Source: Naegleria gruberi (Eukaryota). From it: 64,000 bases of DNA. The stretch lies in the NCBI GenBank assembly GCA_000004985.1, contig GG738894.1. The stretch is one strand, 5' to 3'. The notes below the pieces were generated by a model. It worked only from the letters and a program-made list of their open reading frames with translations, ran no database searches and was not told the origin of the DNA. This document shows positions 60,383 to 63,449 of this stretch, piece after piece. Each line of letters opens with the position of its first letter. Position 1 is the stretch's first letter. The position numbers were made by a program, and so were the translations under genes.

Positions 60383-63300
60383 ATGGTTATTATTCGAAAG
60401 GTTTACTTGTCTAAACCTTGGTGGTTATTTGTGCTACTGTTTAGCTGCATCGTTTTCACAATACACAACAACAACCTTGTTCATTCTAAATCGCCTTCTC
60501 TATACATTCCACAAGTTTCGGATACAAGCCAGACTAATAACATTCCATCTTCTCTATCATCAACAAGTTCCACCTCATCGGATAAATGTAAAACAACTAA
60601 TCCCTTCATATTTTCCCTTCCTACACCATTCTTTCACTGGGCAGAATCGGATTTCAATAACATTGGTTCGAAAGCTTTTTATGAAAATAATTGTTTACAA
60701 ATTGAACAAGTAAATAGATATAATGGATATATTCCATATGATCAAGTCAAGAAATCTCTCACCACCACTTCGACAACATCTAATATTGCAGAATTTTTAA
60801 TCATTGACGATTATTCACTTTTCAAATTGTGGAAAGACAATATTACAAACTTCAAGCTCATTTCACAATTTGCCAAATCAACGAATCTAATTCTAATGTC
60901 CAAGAAGGAAAAACAAATTACATCGATGAGAGATTTGAAAAATAAGAAGGTTGCTGTTTGTCAACATCATTTGGAATATTTGATTTATGAATTATATAAA
61001 CTAGGAATGAGTTTGAGTGATATTAAATATGAGATTGTAAATTATGACCTCATGTATATGAGGGTTTTATATGAAGATATTGATGCATACTTTGTGGATG
61101 ATCGATACATTTTCACACAAGTGAGAAAGACAACTACAACTCTTTATTATCCTAGAGAGTTTAATATTATTGAATCATCACTCAATTATACAAAGGATGG
61201 AATCAACATGTTCAGATATGGTATTATTGTGAAAGATAATCCAAGTGTTAGTGGGCTTGAAGAAATTACAAGAAGATTCTTACTGACACAAACTCAAATG
61301 TACACCTTTTGTAGAGATAATCCTTTGGAGTGTTTTGAAAGATGGGTCGTCTATGATTACATGATTGATAATTTGAACAATTTATTGTGGCCTTCTATTG
61401 ATGGTTTTGGAAATATTAGTAGAGTTTCAATTACAAATTCAATGTCTATATATTTGGGAAGAAATCCAACTTCAACAGAATCAAAAATATTTATCAACCA
61501 GTTTGTCAATTCAACCATAATGGATGAGATTATTTCGAATTGTACTGATAATTTGTGTACAGGCATAGATGGATCTGTATTGAATATTACAGGACTTGCC
61601 TATTCAGATGCAACTCCAACATTTTGTGAGGATTACATATTCCCATATCCACTCTCTTGTAAGAGATATTACTTGTACTTTAGATTGTACTGCTCATTTG
61701 TTCCATTCCTTATTGGTTCCCTAATTAATTTGATATTTGCTGTCATTGTTCCATTCATGAGAAGTGAACACTTGATGAAGCATCGTTTCATAGCCCCATT
61801 TGTAACACCAGTTTGCTTTTCAGGATTTTTACTCTTCTCTGCTATATTATTTTGCAGGTTTTCCTATTTTCCTGAGAATGTCATTTACGGTTTGGCAAGT
61901 GCCTGTATCGTTACAGTTATTATTACACGTTCCATGAATGTGATTCGTTACTTTTATGTGAGAAATATGTTCAAGCTCATGAAAAAGAGGAATAAGAATG
62001 AAAATAATGGATCAGCATACAATTTCTCAATGAAAGAAGATAAGGAAGTATTGGATAGGAATATTCGGTTTCACAGAGTTGCAGCATCCAAATTGGTCTT
62101 TGTTATTATTTGGATAGTACTGGTAGTACTTATTGCTCCGTCATTTTTCATAGCTCAATACTATGCTCCGGAGAATTATATTATAAGAAATGGAATTTCC
62201 ATTATTGTCTATGTATTGGCAACATTTTTCATGGTTTTCCTCTTTATTTTTGATTTGATTGTTAATAGAAAGAGATTGAAAAAGAGAGGTTTCATTTCCT
62301 TCATTCTATTCGACGATCCACTATTGTACAGATTGGAATTATTATTGTGTGGGTTTGAATTGATTTCAATTGTTTGGATTTCTCTCAGTGATTACTATGT
62401 CTATAACATTGCTGCCTTCTCTGCACAAGCTGTTGGTTTCCTTTCTTTGGGCCTTTCTGGTGCTGTAACATGGTCTTATGGATTTGCAGCAGCTGTCATT
62501 CTCTATAGACGTGGCAAGAAGTTTATCATGTCCAAAGTTTATAGAAGAAGAGCAATGAAAAGTAATTCAAACCTCTCTACAGAATTGAGTGGAAGTGCAA
62601 TCCAAGCTGATTTCTTGGAAAAGTTAATTGAAAATGATGATTTTTATTCTCTTCTTGAAGGTATGTTATAGATTGAATAGTTACGAATTTAATGCTTGTA
62701 TAGATTATGCTAAGAAGGAATTCTCATCGGAAAATCTCTTCCTTTACAATGTAAGTTTTCATTAACTCAATCCTCATTTACATGTTCAATCTTTTTGGCA
62801 ATAGATACTGAGACAATATAGAAAAAGGAGAGAACTCTACATTTCGGATTTACTGTTCATTTACAATAATTATGTAAAGAATTATTCACCATTTGAAGTG
62901 AACGTCTCCTCTGAAACTAAGAAGAGCGTTAGAGAAATTCTCTACACTTACCATATGATTGAGTCAGCAACTTCTAAAGACAGATTCTCTAAAAGAATCA
63001 CCCAATTTCCAACAGATATTTTCCCAAATTATGATTCATTCTCGGGAGCTACTCCTTATCAGGCCTTTGATGATGTTCATTCATCGCCAAAACTTGCAAG
63101 TAAGGCGACCATGCCACCTTCATTTCAGAATAACAACTCTCCAATGATGGGTCGATTTAAAGATAGTTTCAGAAAGCTATCATCTGTTTCAGATAGTGAA
63201 GCAAGTAGGGGGGATGATCTTGTTGGAGATGACGCAGATATAGGATCAGATCAAAGCAGAACTCCTAGAAGAAGTACTGTAAGTGGAGGGGGACCAGTTA

Positions 63301-63449
63301 TTCCATTCAATCAAATTCAAGCACTTTACAATGATGTTACACAGAATGTTATGGATACTTTCAGTAGATTATGTGAAACGAGTGAATATCAGCAATGGGA
63401 ATCCCTTAATAATATGGCATTGTTCATCTCCAATAAGGAATTGGCTTGA
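60383..63449 (+). CDS. Seven-transmembrane receptor with large N-terminal ectodomain and C-terminal RGS (regulator of G-protein signalling) domain (3 exons, about 989 aa)
   Basis: Exons are 60383..62660, 62704..62750 and 62805..63449. The introns are 62661..62703 (GTATGT...AG, 43 nt) and 62751..62804 (GTAAGT...AG, 54 nt). The N-terminus has a signal peptide (LSKPWWLFVLLFSCIVFTIHNNNLVHS), then a roughly 400-aa ectodomain containing LKNKKVAVCQHHLEYLIYELYKLGMSLSDIKYEIVNYDLMYMRVLYEDIDAYFVDDRYIF.

Seven hydrophobic helices follow: FVPFLIGSLINLIFAVIVPF; FVTPVCFSGFLLFSAILFC; VIYGLASACIVTVIIT; LVFVIIWIVLVVLIAPSFFIA; ISIIVYVLATFFMVFLFIFDLIV; LELLLCGFELISIVWISL; AVGFLSLGLSGAVTWSYGFAAAVILY.

Splicing reconstitutes the RGS box: DFLEKLIENDDFYSLLEG|DYAKKEFSSENLFLYN|ILRQYRKRRELYISDLLFIYNNYVKNYSPFEVNVSSETKKSVREIL (compare the consensus SLEKLL..G...F..FL.SEFSEENLEFW...K...IY..FI......EVNL). 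A Ser-rich tail ends at TGA 63447-63449. Confidence 0.8.

What the first reader, a model, noticed from the sequence alone, without database searches (positions are those of the whole stretch)
60383..63449. A receptor fused to its own G-protein brake: signal peptide + large ectodomain + 7TM + RGS box in one spliced gene
The RGS box is invisible in the raw ORFs. It only assembles when two tiny introns (43 and 54 nt) are removed. The splice joins DFLEKLIENDDFYSLLEG to DYAKKEFSSENLFLYN to ILRQYRK...EVNVSSETKKSVREIL. Upstream, the same reading frame encodes seven hydrophobic helices and a roughly 400-aa extracellular domain behind a signal peptide.

The 7TM-RGS topology is known from plant AtRGS1-type proteins. 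A large ligand-binding-type ectodomain on top of it is not a standard architecture. The segment KKVAVCQHH...DIKYEIVNYD...DAYFVDDRY resembles bacterial type-2 periplasmic solute-binding proteins. It implies a ligand-regulated GTPase-accelerating receptor rather than a classical GEF-type GPCR.
Basis: partly seen in the sequence, partly recalled or inferred. Interest (0 to 1): 0.75.

Follow-up and report, generated by a model that had tools for sequence, protein, structure and literature searches.

The report
Naegleria solute-sensor 7TM receptor with RGS
This is a real three-exon Naegleria gruberi gene for a membrane receptor that joins a bacterial-type solute-binding outer domain, seven membrane helices and an internal G-protein brake (RGS); the gene and its receptor family are already known, and only the type of outer domain appears undescribed.

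Summary
Exons 60383-62660, 62704-62750 and 62805-63449 (+), with introns of 43 and 54 nt, give a 989-aa protein. Its parts are a signal peptide, an NMT1/ThiY/SsuA-type class-II solute-binding ectodomain, a Cys linker, seven TM helices, and an RGS box split by a ~110-aa insert.

Both introns sit at the same positions and phases in the N. lovaniensis ortholog. They are also already used in the public N. gruberi model.

The window is N. gruberi NEG-M. The gene is EFC40144.1/D2VSL5 ("predicted protein").

Naegleria 7TM-RGS proteins are published (Bosch et al. 2022, PMC9283941). N. fowleri has 28, many with large ectodomains, and the RGS boxes of some members are GAPs for self-activating Gα. A large ectodomain on a 7TM-RGS is therefore not new.

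What I found in no paper is the ectodomain type. It occurs only in this Naegleria ortholog group, with possibly one environmental clade. A similar solute-binding module also sits on metagenomic receptor cyclases.

The most likely function is a solute-modulated receptor GAP. The ligand and the gating are inferred, not shown. Verdict: new member of a known kind, moderate interest.

The parts
60383..62660 (+). Exon 1 (ATG at 60383). It encodes the signal peptide, ectodomain, 7TM and the first RGS helix, and ends in phase 1 after ...YSLLE.
   Evidence: ORF list; splice assembly; same junction in public N. gruberi, N. lovaniensis and N. fowleri models.
62661..62703 (+). Intron 1, 43 nt, GTATGT...TAG, phase 1.
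   Evidence: The N. lovaniensis gene has an intron at the identical codon position and phase. The same intron is used in the JGI model.
62704..62750 (+). Exon 2, 47 nt: (D)YAKKEFSSENLFLYN. It carries the RGS alpha3-alpha4 'SxEN' G-alpha contact motif.
   Evidence: aligned to FSEENLEFW of RGS5/RGS16.
62751..62804 (+). Intron 2, 54 nt, GTAAGT...TAG, phase 0.
62805..63449 (+). Exon 3: the rest of the RGS box, the insert, the last RGS helices, and the stop at 63447-63449.
60383..60481 (+). Signal-peptide-like N-terminus (aa 1-33; hydrophobic core WWLFVLLFSCIVF).
   Evidence: Hydropathy. The N. fowleri ortholog has an equivalent hydrophobic N-terminal segment. No dedicated signal-peptide predictor was available.
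60482..60580 (+). Ser/Thr-rich low-complexity stretch (aa 34-66) between the signal peptide and the solute-binding domain. It is poorly conserved among the orthologs.
   Evidence: Domain map; ortholog alignment.
60581..61522 (+). Ectodomain (aa 67-380): class-II periplasmic-binding-protein fold of the NMT1/THI5/ThiY/SsuA type, with the subfamily motif MYTFCRDNPLEC...NLLWPSIDGFG.
   Evidence: Pfam PF09084. hhalign of the ortholog profile against the SBP profile: 99% probability, E 4.3e-18. Single sequence aa 91-379 against SBP positions 55-346: 98.4%. AF2 pLDDT 82, pTM 0.83. Foldseek top hits 4NMY, 4H6D, 3IX1 and 3KSX at E 9e-12 to 2e-10.
61523..61672 (+). Cys-containing juxtamembrane linker (aa 381-430; C387, C392, C415, C426; two N-glycosylation sequons).
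   Evidence: A similar FC.D...C motif precedes the TM in SBP-cyclase proteins P0009 and P0010.
61673..62512 (+). Seven-helix membrane domain (aa 431-710). Family motifs are R468..P472, RYFYVRN at the end of TM3, and NRKRLKKRGF..F.FDDP before TM6.
   Evidence: Hydropathy and positive-inside count. AF2 helices at pLDDT 60-80. Paralog alignment. No Pfam or PDB sequence match to any GPCR family. Only weak fold hits to GPCRs, E about 0.1.
62609..62969 (+). RGS box, N-terminal two-thirds (aa 743-830, helices about alpha1-alpha6). It spans both introns.
   Evidence: Pfam RGS 27.6 bits; phmmer hits to RGS5/16/8/10 structures.
62970..63296 (+). Low-complexity insert inside the RGS box (aa 831-939). It holds the conserved motif FK(D/N)SFRKL.S.S.
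   Evidence: Ortholog alignment. Paralogs P0012-P0014 lack the insert.
63297..63404 (+). RGS box, C-terminal helices (aa 940-975: FNQIQALYNDVTQNVMDTFSRLCETSEYQQW).
   Evidence: With the insert deleted, the Pfam RGS score rises to 32.3 bits and coverage extends to 2-100/117. BLASTP against RGS4 runs straight across the deletion point, ESATVIPFNQIQ to EPTITCFDEAQ. The segment is conserved in all paralogs.

Best explanation
The locus is one three-exon Naegleria gruberi gene (public id NAEGRDRAFT_71982 / EFC40144.1). It encodes a type-I-oriented, N-out/C-in 7TM protein of the heterolobosean 7TM-RGS receptor family.

The extracellular part is a bilobed, Venus-flytrap-like solute-binding domain derived from bacterial NMT1/ThiY/SsuA-type ABC-transporter binding proteins. 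A Cys-containing stalk ties it to the first TM helix. The cytosolic tail is an RGS box that keeps the G-alpha-contact residues. A disordered, partly conserved loop of about 110 aa interrupts it.

The most likely mechanism follows AtRGS1 and the N. fowleri 7TM-RGS proteins. In the resting state the membrane-anchored RGS box accelerates GTP hydrolysis on one or more Naegleria G-alpha subunits, some of which self-activate, and so keeps them off. Binding of a small solute in the ectodomain cleft is passed through the 7TM bundle. This changes GAP access or activity, perhaps through phosphorylation of the RGS insert or internalisation, and so sets the level of G-alpha-GTP.

Shown here: the gene structure, the domain homologies, the topology logic and the family membership. 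Inferred: GAP activity of this particular RGS box, any ligand binding, and the direction of regulation.
For: Gene model. Intron positions and phases are conserved between species, and the same introns appear in the public model.

Organism and identity.

RGS: Pfam above the gathering cut-off, rising when the insert is removed. PDB RGS hits come with aligned SxEN and EVN motifs. The alignment continues across the insert. Full-length RGS matches exist in paralogs that lack the insert.

Seven TM helices and the positive-inside pattern.

SBP ectodomain.

Family: paralogous 7TM-RGS proteins occur in N. lovaniensis, N. gruberi and Willaertia.

Function of the family: the RGS boxes of Nf 7TM RGS2-4 are GAPs for Nf G-alpha 2/3/5/7, and G-alpha 5 and 7 are self-activating (PMC9283941). 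N. gruberi has a large lineage-specific G-alpha expansion (PMC3971589; PMC5784254).
Against: No transcript data were available, so the single mRNA and the 60383 start rest on comparative evidence. The public model starts elsewhere.

The RGS Pfam score is only modestly above threshold, and the box carries a large insert. GAP activity has not been measured for this protein or its orthologs.

The SBP domain is divergent, at about 20% identity to bacterial SBPs. The N-lobe GGP motif is missing and the cleft residues were not examined, so ligand binding may be lost.

The AF2 ectodomain model was built from an alignment dominated by real SBPs, which biases it towards that fold.

The 7TM bundle has no detectable sequence relationship to AtRGS1 or to any GPCR family.
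Confidence: 0.72

Rival explanations
1. It is a conventional GEF-type GPCR whose tethered RGS box only sharpens signal turn-off (kinetic scaffolding). In this reading the ligand switches G-alpha on through the 7TM core, and the RGS is not itself the regulated output.
For: The 7TM bundle has a conserved basic motif at the end of TM3 (RYFYVRN) and a conserved ICL3 / pre-TM6 motif (NRK.L.K.G...F.FDDP), positioned like G-protein-coupling regions. Naegleria also has slow-exchanging G-alpha subunits that would need a GEF (PMC9283941). The weak fold hits are to class A GPCRs.
Against: There is no sequence homology to any GPCR family. The fold hits are not significant, and the model is poor, with a mean pLDDT of 47. 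All studied 7TM-RGS proteins act as GAP receptors on self-activating G-alpha.
Confidence: 0.15
2. The ectodomain is a degenerate SBP relic that no longer binds a solute. It serves as a structural, dimerisation or adhesion module, and the protein is a constitutive membrane-anchored GAP.
For: Identity to bacterial SBPs is low. The Pfam match covers only profile positions 66-145 of 216 at 22.1 bits. The N-lobe GGP motif seen in the SBPs and SBP-cyclases is absent. Most paralogous 7TM-RGS proteins have no detectable SBP ectodomain.
Against: The domain is strongly conserved across three Naegleria species; invariant blocks include DAYFV.D.YIFT.VRKT.T.LYYPREFNII and MY.(F/Y)CR.NP.ECFE.W. The full bilobed fold is predicted with confidence. 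A similar SBP module is reused on receptor cyclases and on bacterial GGDEF and histidine-kinase sensors, where it is a sensor domain.
Confidence: 0.1
3. The public JGI model is right. The protein would then start with ankyrin repeats encoded at 59302-60141, have no signal peptide, and the ATG at 60383 would lie inside a 374-nt intron.
For: This is the deposited model (EFC40144.1, 1161 aa).
Against: The proposed intron 60142-60515 is 5-8 times longer than the five other local introns (43-74 nt) and has a weak GTGATA donor. It removes an in-frame ATG and a hydrophobic leader. The N. lovaniensis and N. fowleri orthologs have no ankyrin repeats, and in N. lovaniensis the upstream gene is called separately. 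Without a signal peptide, seven TM helices would place either the glycosylation-sequon and Cys-rich SBP domain or the RGS box on the wrong side of the membrane.
Confidence: 0.05
4. There are two separate genes: a 7TM ORF ending at 62671 and an independent or untranscribed RGS-like ORF.
For: Prokaryote-style ORF callers on metagenome contigs stop at 62671 (P0001).
Against: Both introns have canonical boundaries and restore the frame. Their positions and phases are conserved in N. lovaniensis. The RGS box is incomplete without exons 1 and 2. Paralogs show the same 7TM-RGS continuity.
Confidence: 0.02

Closest known systems
Naegleria fowleri 7TM RGS protein family (Bosch, Jeck & Siderovski 2022, J Biol Chem, PMC9283941)
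   Same: Same genus and the same 7TM plus C-terminal RGS architecture, with a large extracellular N-terminus. The N. fowleri ortholog FDP41_006101 (1111 aa) shares all three parts. Paralogs share the 7TM motifs and the RGS box. The family's RGS boxes are proven GAPs for self-activating G-alpha.
   Different: The four characterised members (1215-2459 aa) carry EGF, lectin and GPS-type adhesion ectodomains. This one carries an NMT1/ThiY/SsuA-type solute-binding domain, which the paper does not mention. This protein and its orthologs have not been tested biochemically.
Arabidopsis AtRGS1 (plant 7TM-RGS, glucose-responsive GAP for the self-activating AtGPA1)
   Same: Same logic: seven TM helices followed by a cytosolic RGS box in one polypeptide, with a proposed ligand-regulated GAP function instead of GEF function.
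   Different: From established knowledge, AtRGS1 has essentially no ectodomain. No sequence homology of the 7TM part was detectable or tested here. The fusion is probably independent. The RGS here carries an insert of about 110 aa.
Class C GPCRs (mGluR, CaSR, GABA-B; Dictyostelium Grl)
   Same: Venus-flytrap periplasmic-binding-protein ectodomain, then a Cys-containing stalk, then 7TM. This is a solute-sensor receptor layout.
   Different: Class C uses a type-1 PBP (ANF_receptor) and the 7tm_3 bundle, and acts as a GEF. Here the PBP is type 2 (PF09084), there is no 7tm_3 match, and the output is an RGS box.
Bacterial NMT1/THI5/ThiY/SsuA/TauA-type substrate-binding proteins (PF09084; PDB 4NMY, 3IX1, 4H6D, 3KSX)
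   Same: Homologous fold and sequence motifs. Bacteria also fuse this domain to PAS-GGDEF and histidine-kinase outputs as a sensor.
   Different: Here the domain is tethered to a eukaryotic 7TM-RGS, with about 20% identity and N-glycosylation sequons. The ligand is unknown.
SBP-TM-adenylate/guanylate cyclase receptor proteins (metagenomic P0009, P0010)
   Same: Same subfamily of SBP ectodomain with the YCR.NP..C...LIWPS..G.G motif and a similar Cys juxtamembrane motif.
   Different: These have a single TM and a cyclase output instead of 7TM-RGS. Their source organisms are unknown.

Membership tests
RGS domain (Pfam PF00615) | Profile match above the curated gathering score | tested here: met
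   27.6 bits against 23.9 on the spliced protein. 32.3 bits with coverage 2-100/117 after removing the aa 831-939 insert.
RGS domain (Pfam PF00615) | G-alpha contact residues (RGS4 S85/E87/N88, N128, D163/R167) | tested here: met
   The window has FSSEN, EVN and MDTFSR. The first two align to RGS5/RGS16. One search aligns across the insert as far as FNQIQ/FDEAQ. The D163/R167 equivalence beyond that point is my reading of the conserved NDVTQNVMDTFSRL block in the paralog alignment. Residue numbering and the RGS4 sequence are from my own knowledge.
RGS domain (Pfam PF00615) | GAP activity on a G-alpha subunit | not testable with these tools
   Shown only for the isolated RGS boxes of other Naegleria 7TM RGS proteins (PMC9283941).
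7TM-RGS receptors (AtRGS1 type / Naegleria 7TM RGS) | Seven TM helices N-terminal to an RGS box in one polypeptide | tested here: met
   Seven hydropathy peaks and matching AF2 helices. Continuity rests on splicing conserved between species.
7TM-RGS receptors (AtRGS1 type / Naegleria 7TM RGS) | N-out/C-in topology, so that the RGS is cytosolic | tested here: met
   Signal-peptide-like leader. K+R of 3/13/6 in the inner loops against 1/1/0 in the outer loops. Sequons and Cys residues lie only in the N-terminal domain. This is rule-based; no dedicated predictor or experiment was used.
7TM-RGS receptors (AtRGS1 type / Naegleria 7TM RGS) | Sequence homology of the 7TM part to other family members | tested here: met
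   Met for heterolobosean paralogs (E 3e-8 to 4e-4 library-wide; shared motifs). Not tested against AtRGS1.
7TM-RGS receptors (AtRGS1 type / Naegleria 7TM RGS) | Single mature transcript | not testable with these tools
   No RNA data were available. Three independent public annotations join the exons identically.
NMT1/THI5/SsuA-like class-II solute-binding proteins (PF09084) | Profile match above the gathering score | tested here: met
   22.1 bits against 20.5, but only profile positions 66-145 of 216. Backed by hhalign at 99% probability, E 4.3e-18, over 223 columns.
NMT1/THI5/SsuA-like class-II solute-binding proteins (PF09084) | Bilobed alpha/beta PBP type-2 fold | tested here: met
   AF2 pLDDT 82, pTM 0.83. 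Foldseek hits 4NMY, 3IX1, 4H6D, 3KSX and 6SSY at E 1e-11 to 1e-9, TM 0.5-0.68. Caveat: the input alignment was rich in real SBPs.
NMT1/THI5/SsuA-like class-II solute-binding proteins (PF09084) | Intact ligand-binding cleft / binds a solute | not tested
   Cleft residues were not mapped. The N-lobe GGP motif is absent.
Class C GPCR | ANF_receptor (type-1 PBP) ectodomain and 7tm_3 bundle | tested here: not met
   No PF01094 or PF00003 hit at E<=1. It works like a class C GPCR in layout only.
Other GPCR families (7tm_1, 7tm_2, Dicty_CAR, Frizzled) | Profile or sequence match of the 7TM region | tested here: not met
   No Pfam hit in any of 10 family members. No PDB GPCR at E<0.3. Fold hits to GPCRs are only E about 0.1, from a low-confidence model.

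The most novel reading that the evidence does not exclude
The NMT1/ThiY-type flytrap is a working small-molecule sensor that directly gates the receptor's GAP output. Candidate ligands are a thiamine or pyrimidine precursor, a sulfonate, or another bacterial-prey metabolite. This would be the first 7TM-RGS protein with an identifiable, expressible ligand-binding domain. The open question of whether 7TM-RGS proteins are true ligand-regulated GAP receptors would then become directly testable. It would also show that Naegleria plugs one bacterial-derived sensor module into two different outputs, RGS and cyclase.
Probability: 0.3. Interest if true: 0.65.

Novelty: new member of a known kind. Interest (0 to 1): 0.35.

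Why it matters
How 7TM-RGS proteins sense anything is unresolved. Direct glucose binding by AtRGS1 has, as far as I know, never been shown. Bosch et al. state that whether and how extracellular cues alter GAP activity of the Naegleria proteins "remains to be determined".

A family member whose ectodomain is a recognisable, soluble, screenable solute-binding domain gives a practical entry point. The ectodomain can be expressed and screened against metabolites, and GAP output can then be tested.

The result also corrects a public gene model that hides the signal peptide. The orthologous receptor in the pathogen N. fowleri (FDP41_006101) could be a druggable surface protein.

It is not a new principle. 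The architecture class, the family and the gene are already on record.

Tried and rejected
I used an alignment of window pieces plus orthologs instead. Its profile kept only 814 positions, so the RGS tail was under-represented.

2. AF2 on the 759-aa exon-1 product with 13 sequences gave a poor model, with mean pLDDT 47 and the ectodomain below 50. Its Foldseek hits to GPCRs (E about 0.1) are only suggestive.

3. A profile of the ectodomain orthologs alone found nothing in PDB sequences. The link to solved SBPs had to go through the intermediate SBP set.

4. A profile of the 7TM region found no GPCR in PDB or Pfam, so no GPCR class can be assigned.

5. Anantharaman et al. 2011 (Gene 475:63), which may list Naegleria 7TM-RGS architectures, is not held in the library. 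I could not check whether it mentions an SBP ectodomain.

6. The afdb50 fold library was unavailable.

7. I considered whether the RGS insert is an unrecognised intron and rejected it. The insert is in frame, far longer than the local introns, and contains motifs conserved in orthologs.

8. I considered ankyrin repeats as part of the protein (the JGI model) and rejected it on intron length, weak donor, ortholog comparison and topology.
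Full report
**What the window is.** Bases 1-41860 are N. Real sequence runs from 41861 to 64000 at about 33% GC. Three neighbouring single-exon ORFs were looked up by exact sequence. Two are in the public N. gruberi NEG-M annotation: 57500-58651 is EFC40143.1/D2VSL4 (an actin-like protein) and 53628-55094 is EFC40141.1/D2VSL2. 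Both lie on a 499,907-bp scaffold. The third, the methyltransferase at 55105-56022, matched only an ENA metagenome entry. The window is therefore Naegleria gruberi, a heterolobosean amoeboflagellate.

**Checking the observation.** The 762-aa ORF 60383-62671 and the downstream ORFs are as described.
- Removing 62661-62703 (43 nt, GTATGT...TAG) and 62751-62804 (54 nt, GTAAGT...TAG) gives a 2970-nt CDS and a 989-aa protein.
- The only error is at junction 1. The intron is phase 1, so the protein reads ...YSLLE|DYAKK, not ...LLEG|DYAKK.
- The N. lovaniensis ortholog (C9374_012153, 1041 aa, 46% identity over 93% of the query) was mapped onto its genomic locus. It has introns at exactly the same two codon positions and phases: after LLE in phase 1 and after LYLYT in phase 0. 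It also has one extra intron in the TM7 region. Conserved intron positions between such diverged species are strong evidence that the introns are real and that the 7TM and RGS parts belong to one gene.
- The N. fowleri ortholog (FDP41_006101, 1111 aa) has the same junction sequence.

**It is already annotated.**
- The 90%-identity cluster of the unspliced ORF contains EFC40144.1 / XP_002672888.1 / UniProt D2VSL5 / NAEGRDRAFT_71982, a 1161-aa "predicted protein".
- Mapping that model onto the window shows it uses the same two 3' introns.
- The model is nonetheless a probable gene merge. It begins in the upstream ankyrin-repeat gene (59302...) and jumps through a 374-nt "intron" (60142-60515, GTGATA donor) into codon 46 of the receptor ORF. 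That deletes ATG 60383 and the hydrophobic leader.
- The five other local introns are 43-74 nt. The orthologs have no ankyrin repeats. In N. lovaniensis a separate gene is called upstream.
- Without a leader, seven TM helices would put either the ectodomain or the RGS box on the wrong side of the membrane. Only transcript data can prove it.

**Domain anatomy** (coordinates).

*(i) Leader and low-complexity stretch.*
- aa 1-33 form a signal-peptide-like leader.
- aa 34-66 are Ser/Thr-rich low complexity.

*(ii) Ectodomain, aa 67-380.*
- Pfam gives NMT1/THI5-like PF09084 just above its cut-off (22.1 against 20.5 bits), over a partial stretch only.
- The exhaustive profile search of 1.84 billion representatives recovered bona fide NMT1-type binding proteins against the ectodomain region, at E 2e-5 to 4e-4.
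- hhalign of the three-ortholog ectodomain profile against a small SBP profile gives 99% probability, E 4.3e-18, over 223 columns.
- The window sequence alone aligns aa 91-379 to SBP positions 55-346 at 98.4% probability.
- The shared motif is striking. The window has TRRFLLTQTQMYTFCRDNPLEC...NNLLWPSIDGFGNIS. A bacterial SBP has ERFLRAVVRGALYCRNNPADC...NRLIWPSIDGVGKLE.
- That SBP set in turn matches solved structures 4NMY (thiamin-bound SBP), THI5/THI13 and ThiY at E 1e-13 to 1e-21.
- An AF2 model of aa 67-436, built with 53 aligned sequences, reached pLDDT 82 and pTM 0.83. Its best Foldseek PDB matches are 4NMY, THI5, ThiY (3IX1), SsuA, TauA and PqqT, at E 9e-12 to 3e-9.
- Caveat: the alignment was dominated by genuine SBPs.

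*(iii) Juxtamembrane linker, aa 381-430.* This stretch has four Cys and two sequons.

*(iv) Membrane domain, aa 431-710.*
- There are seven hydrophobic helices with a clean positive-inside pattern: K+R of 3/13/6 in the inner loops against 1/1/0 in the outer loops.
- AF2 predicts matching helices at pLDDT 60-80, although the whole-ORF model is poor overall.
- No Pfam GPCR family and no PDB GPCR sequence is matched, even with a 10-sequence profile.
- Fold hits to class A GPCRs are weak, at E about 0.1.

*(v) RGS box.*
- aa 743-830 match Pfam RGS positions 2-82 at 27.6 bits (cut-off 23.9). They also match RGS5/16/8/10 structures, with the FSSEN and EVN motifs aligned to FSEEN and EVN.
- Deleting the insert raises the Pfam score to 32.3 bits and extends coverage to 2-100/117.
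- BLASTP to RGS4 (sequence typed from my memory) runs straight across the deletion point.
- Paralogs P0012-P0014 have no insert, and P0013 has a full-length RGS match.
- The insert is coding, not intronic. It is in frame and carries a motif conserved in all three orthologs, FK(D/N)SFRKL.S.S.

**Family and distribution.**
- The whole-protein profile found only 14 representatives at E <= 1e-3 and three at E <= 1e-10: two are orthologs or near-identical copies and the third is an unassigned 218-aa metagenome fragment.
- The weaker hits fall into two groups. One group is 7TM-RGS paralogs from N. lovaniensis, Willaertia magna, N. gruberi (D2VZT8) and metagenomes. The other is NMT1-type SBPs.
- Paralogs share the 7TM motifs (R..P after TM1, RY.Y.RN after TM3, N.R..L.K.G...F.FDDP before TM6) and the RGS box.
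- With the weak exception of one environmental clade (P0011/P0017; 51% probability), the paralogs show no detectable SBP ectodomain.
- The SBP-7TM-RGS combination is therefore confined, as far as these data show, to one Naegleria ortholog group.
- A similar SBP module and a similar Cys juxtamembrane motif also occur on signal-peptide-SBP-1TM-adenylate/guanylate-cyclase proteins from metagenomes (P0009, P0010).
- Bacteria fuse the same domain family to PAS-GGDEF and histidine-kinase outputs. Its use as a sensor module is thus well precedented.

**Literature.**
- de Mendoza et al. 2014 note 7TM-RGS architectures in many bikonts and in some opisthokonts (PMC3971589).
- Bosch, Jeck and Siderovski 2022 (PMC9283941) describe 28 transcribed 7TM-RGS genes in N. 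fowleri, "several" with complex extracellular N-termini (EGF, lectin, GPS).
- They show that the isolated RGS boxes of Nf 7TM RGS2-4 bind AlF4-activated G-alpha and accelerate GTP hydrolysis on Nf G-alpha 2/3/5/7. G-alpha 5 and 7 are self-activating.
- They state that whether these proteins are receptors, and how cues alter GAP activity, is unknown.
- The paper does not mention NMT1 or solute-binding ectodomains. The four proteins studied (1215-2459 aa) are not this ortholog.
- I could not read Anantharaman et al. 2011.

**Mechanism.** The best-supported reading is a receptor GAP.
- A flytrap-type solute sensor outside is coupled through a 7TM bundle to a cytosolic RGS box that deactivates Naegleria G-alpha subunits. 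Ligand binding would modulate that brake, as proposed for AtRGS1 and for the Naegleria family.
- Shown here: gene structure, domain homologies, topology logic, conservation, and family membership.
- Inferred: GAP activity of this particular box, any ligand binding, and the sign of regulation.
- The conserved Ser-rich motif in the RGS insert is a candidate phospho-regulatory site. AtRGS1 is regulated by C-terminal phosphorylation (my knowledge, not tested here).
- Rival readings are a GEF-type GPCR with a tethered RGS, a degenerate non-binding ectodomain, the ankyrin-fused public model, and two separate genes. They are weighed in the Rival explanations section. The last two are poorly supported.

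**Verdict.** The claim of a non-standard architecture is overstated. The gene has been in the databases since 2010, and Naegleria 7TM-RGS receptors with large ectodomains are published and partly characterised. The residual novelty is the specific ectodomain type, a class-II NMT1/ThiY/SsuA-like solute-binding domain. This makes it a potentially tractable member for finding a 7TM-RGS ligand. A second contribution is the correction of the public 5' gene model. I rate it a new member of a known kind, of moderate interest.

Noticed in passing
window 1-41860: The first 41,860 positions are all N. Only 41861-64000 is real sequence (GC about 33%).
   Followed up: yes
window 59302-60515: The public N. 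gruberi model EFC40144.1 merges an upstream ankyrin-repeat gene (exons from 59302 to 60141) with the receptor. It does so through a 374-nt GTGATA...AG 'intron' (60142-60515) that removes the receptor's ATG and signal peptide. This is probably an annotation artefact.
   Followed up: yes
window 44837-49111 (+): Consecutive ORFs carry NHL/teneurin-like repeats, EGF-like modules, a TM segment and a protein-kinase domain. Together they look like one multi-exon receptor-kinase gene.
   Followed up: partly
window 63588-63660 (-): tRNA-Lys (anticodon UUU) on the opposite strand, 139 nt downstream of the receptor's stop codon.
   Followed up: partly
window 62970-63296 (aa 831-939): The insert inside the RGS box holds motifs conserved in N. 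gruberi, N. lovaniensis and N. fowleri: G.FK(D/N)SFRKL.S.S and LVG.DD. This is a possible phosphorylation or regulatory site.
   Followed up: no
proteins P0009, P0010, P0008 (metagenome contigs): These have a signal peptide, an SBP ectodomain of the same NMT1-type subfamily, a similar Cys juxtamembrane motif and one TM. P0009 has a confirmed adenylate/guanylate cyclase domain; P0010 ends in a region that resembles one but scored no Pfam hit at E <= 0.01. The sensor module therefore seems to be reused on a different output. Source organisms are unknown.
   Followed up: partly
proteins P0011/P0017 (metagenome ORFs): These 7TM-RGS paralog ORFs end just after KEFSSENILLW, where intron 2 lies in the window gene. 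This suggests the intron is shared by that clade. They also show a weak NMT1-like signal in the ectodomain.
   Followed up: no
L001 650-1787 and window 55102-56022: A Methyltransf_11 gene lies a few kb upstream of the receptor gene in both N. lovaniensis and N. gruberi. This hints at partial local synteny despite 46% protein identity.
   Followed up: no
window 49527-50660 (-) and 50748-52790 (-): A highly regular LRR_6 repeat protein (repeats of ISEMKQLTSLNI...) lies next to a class-II aminoacyl-tRNA-synthetase-like gene with an HGTP_anticodon domain.
   Followed up: no
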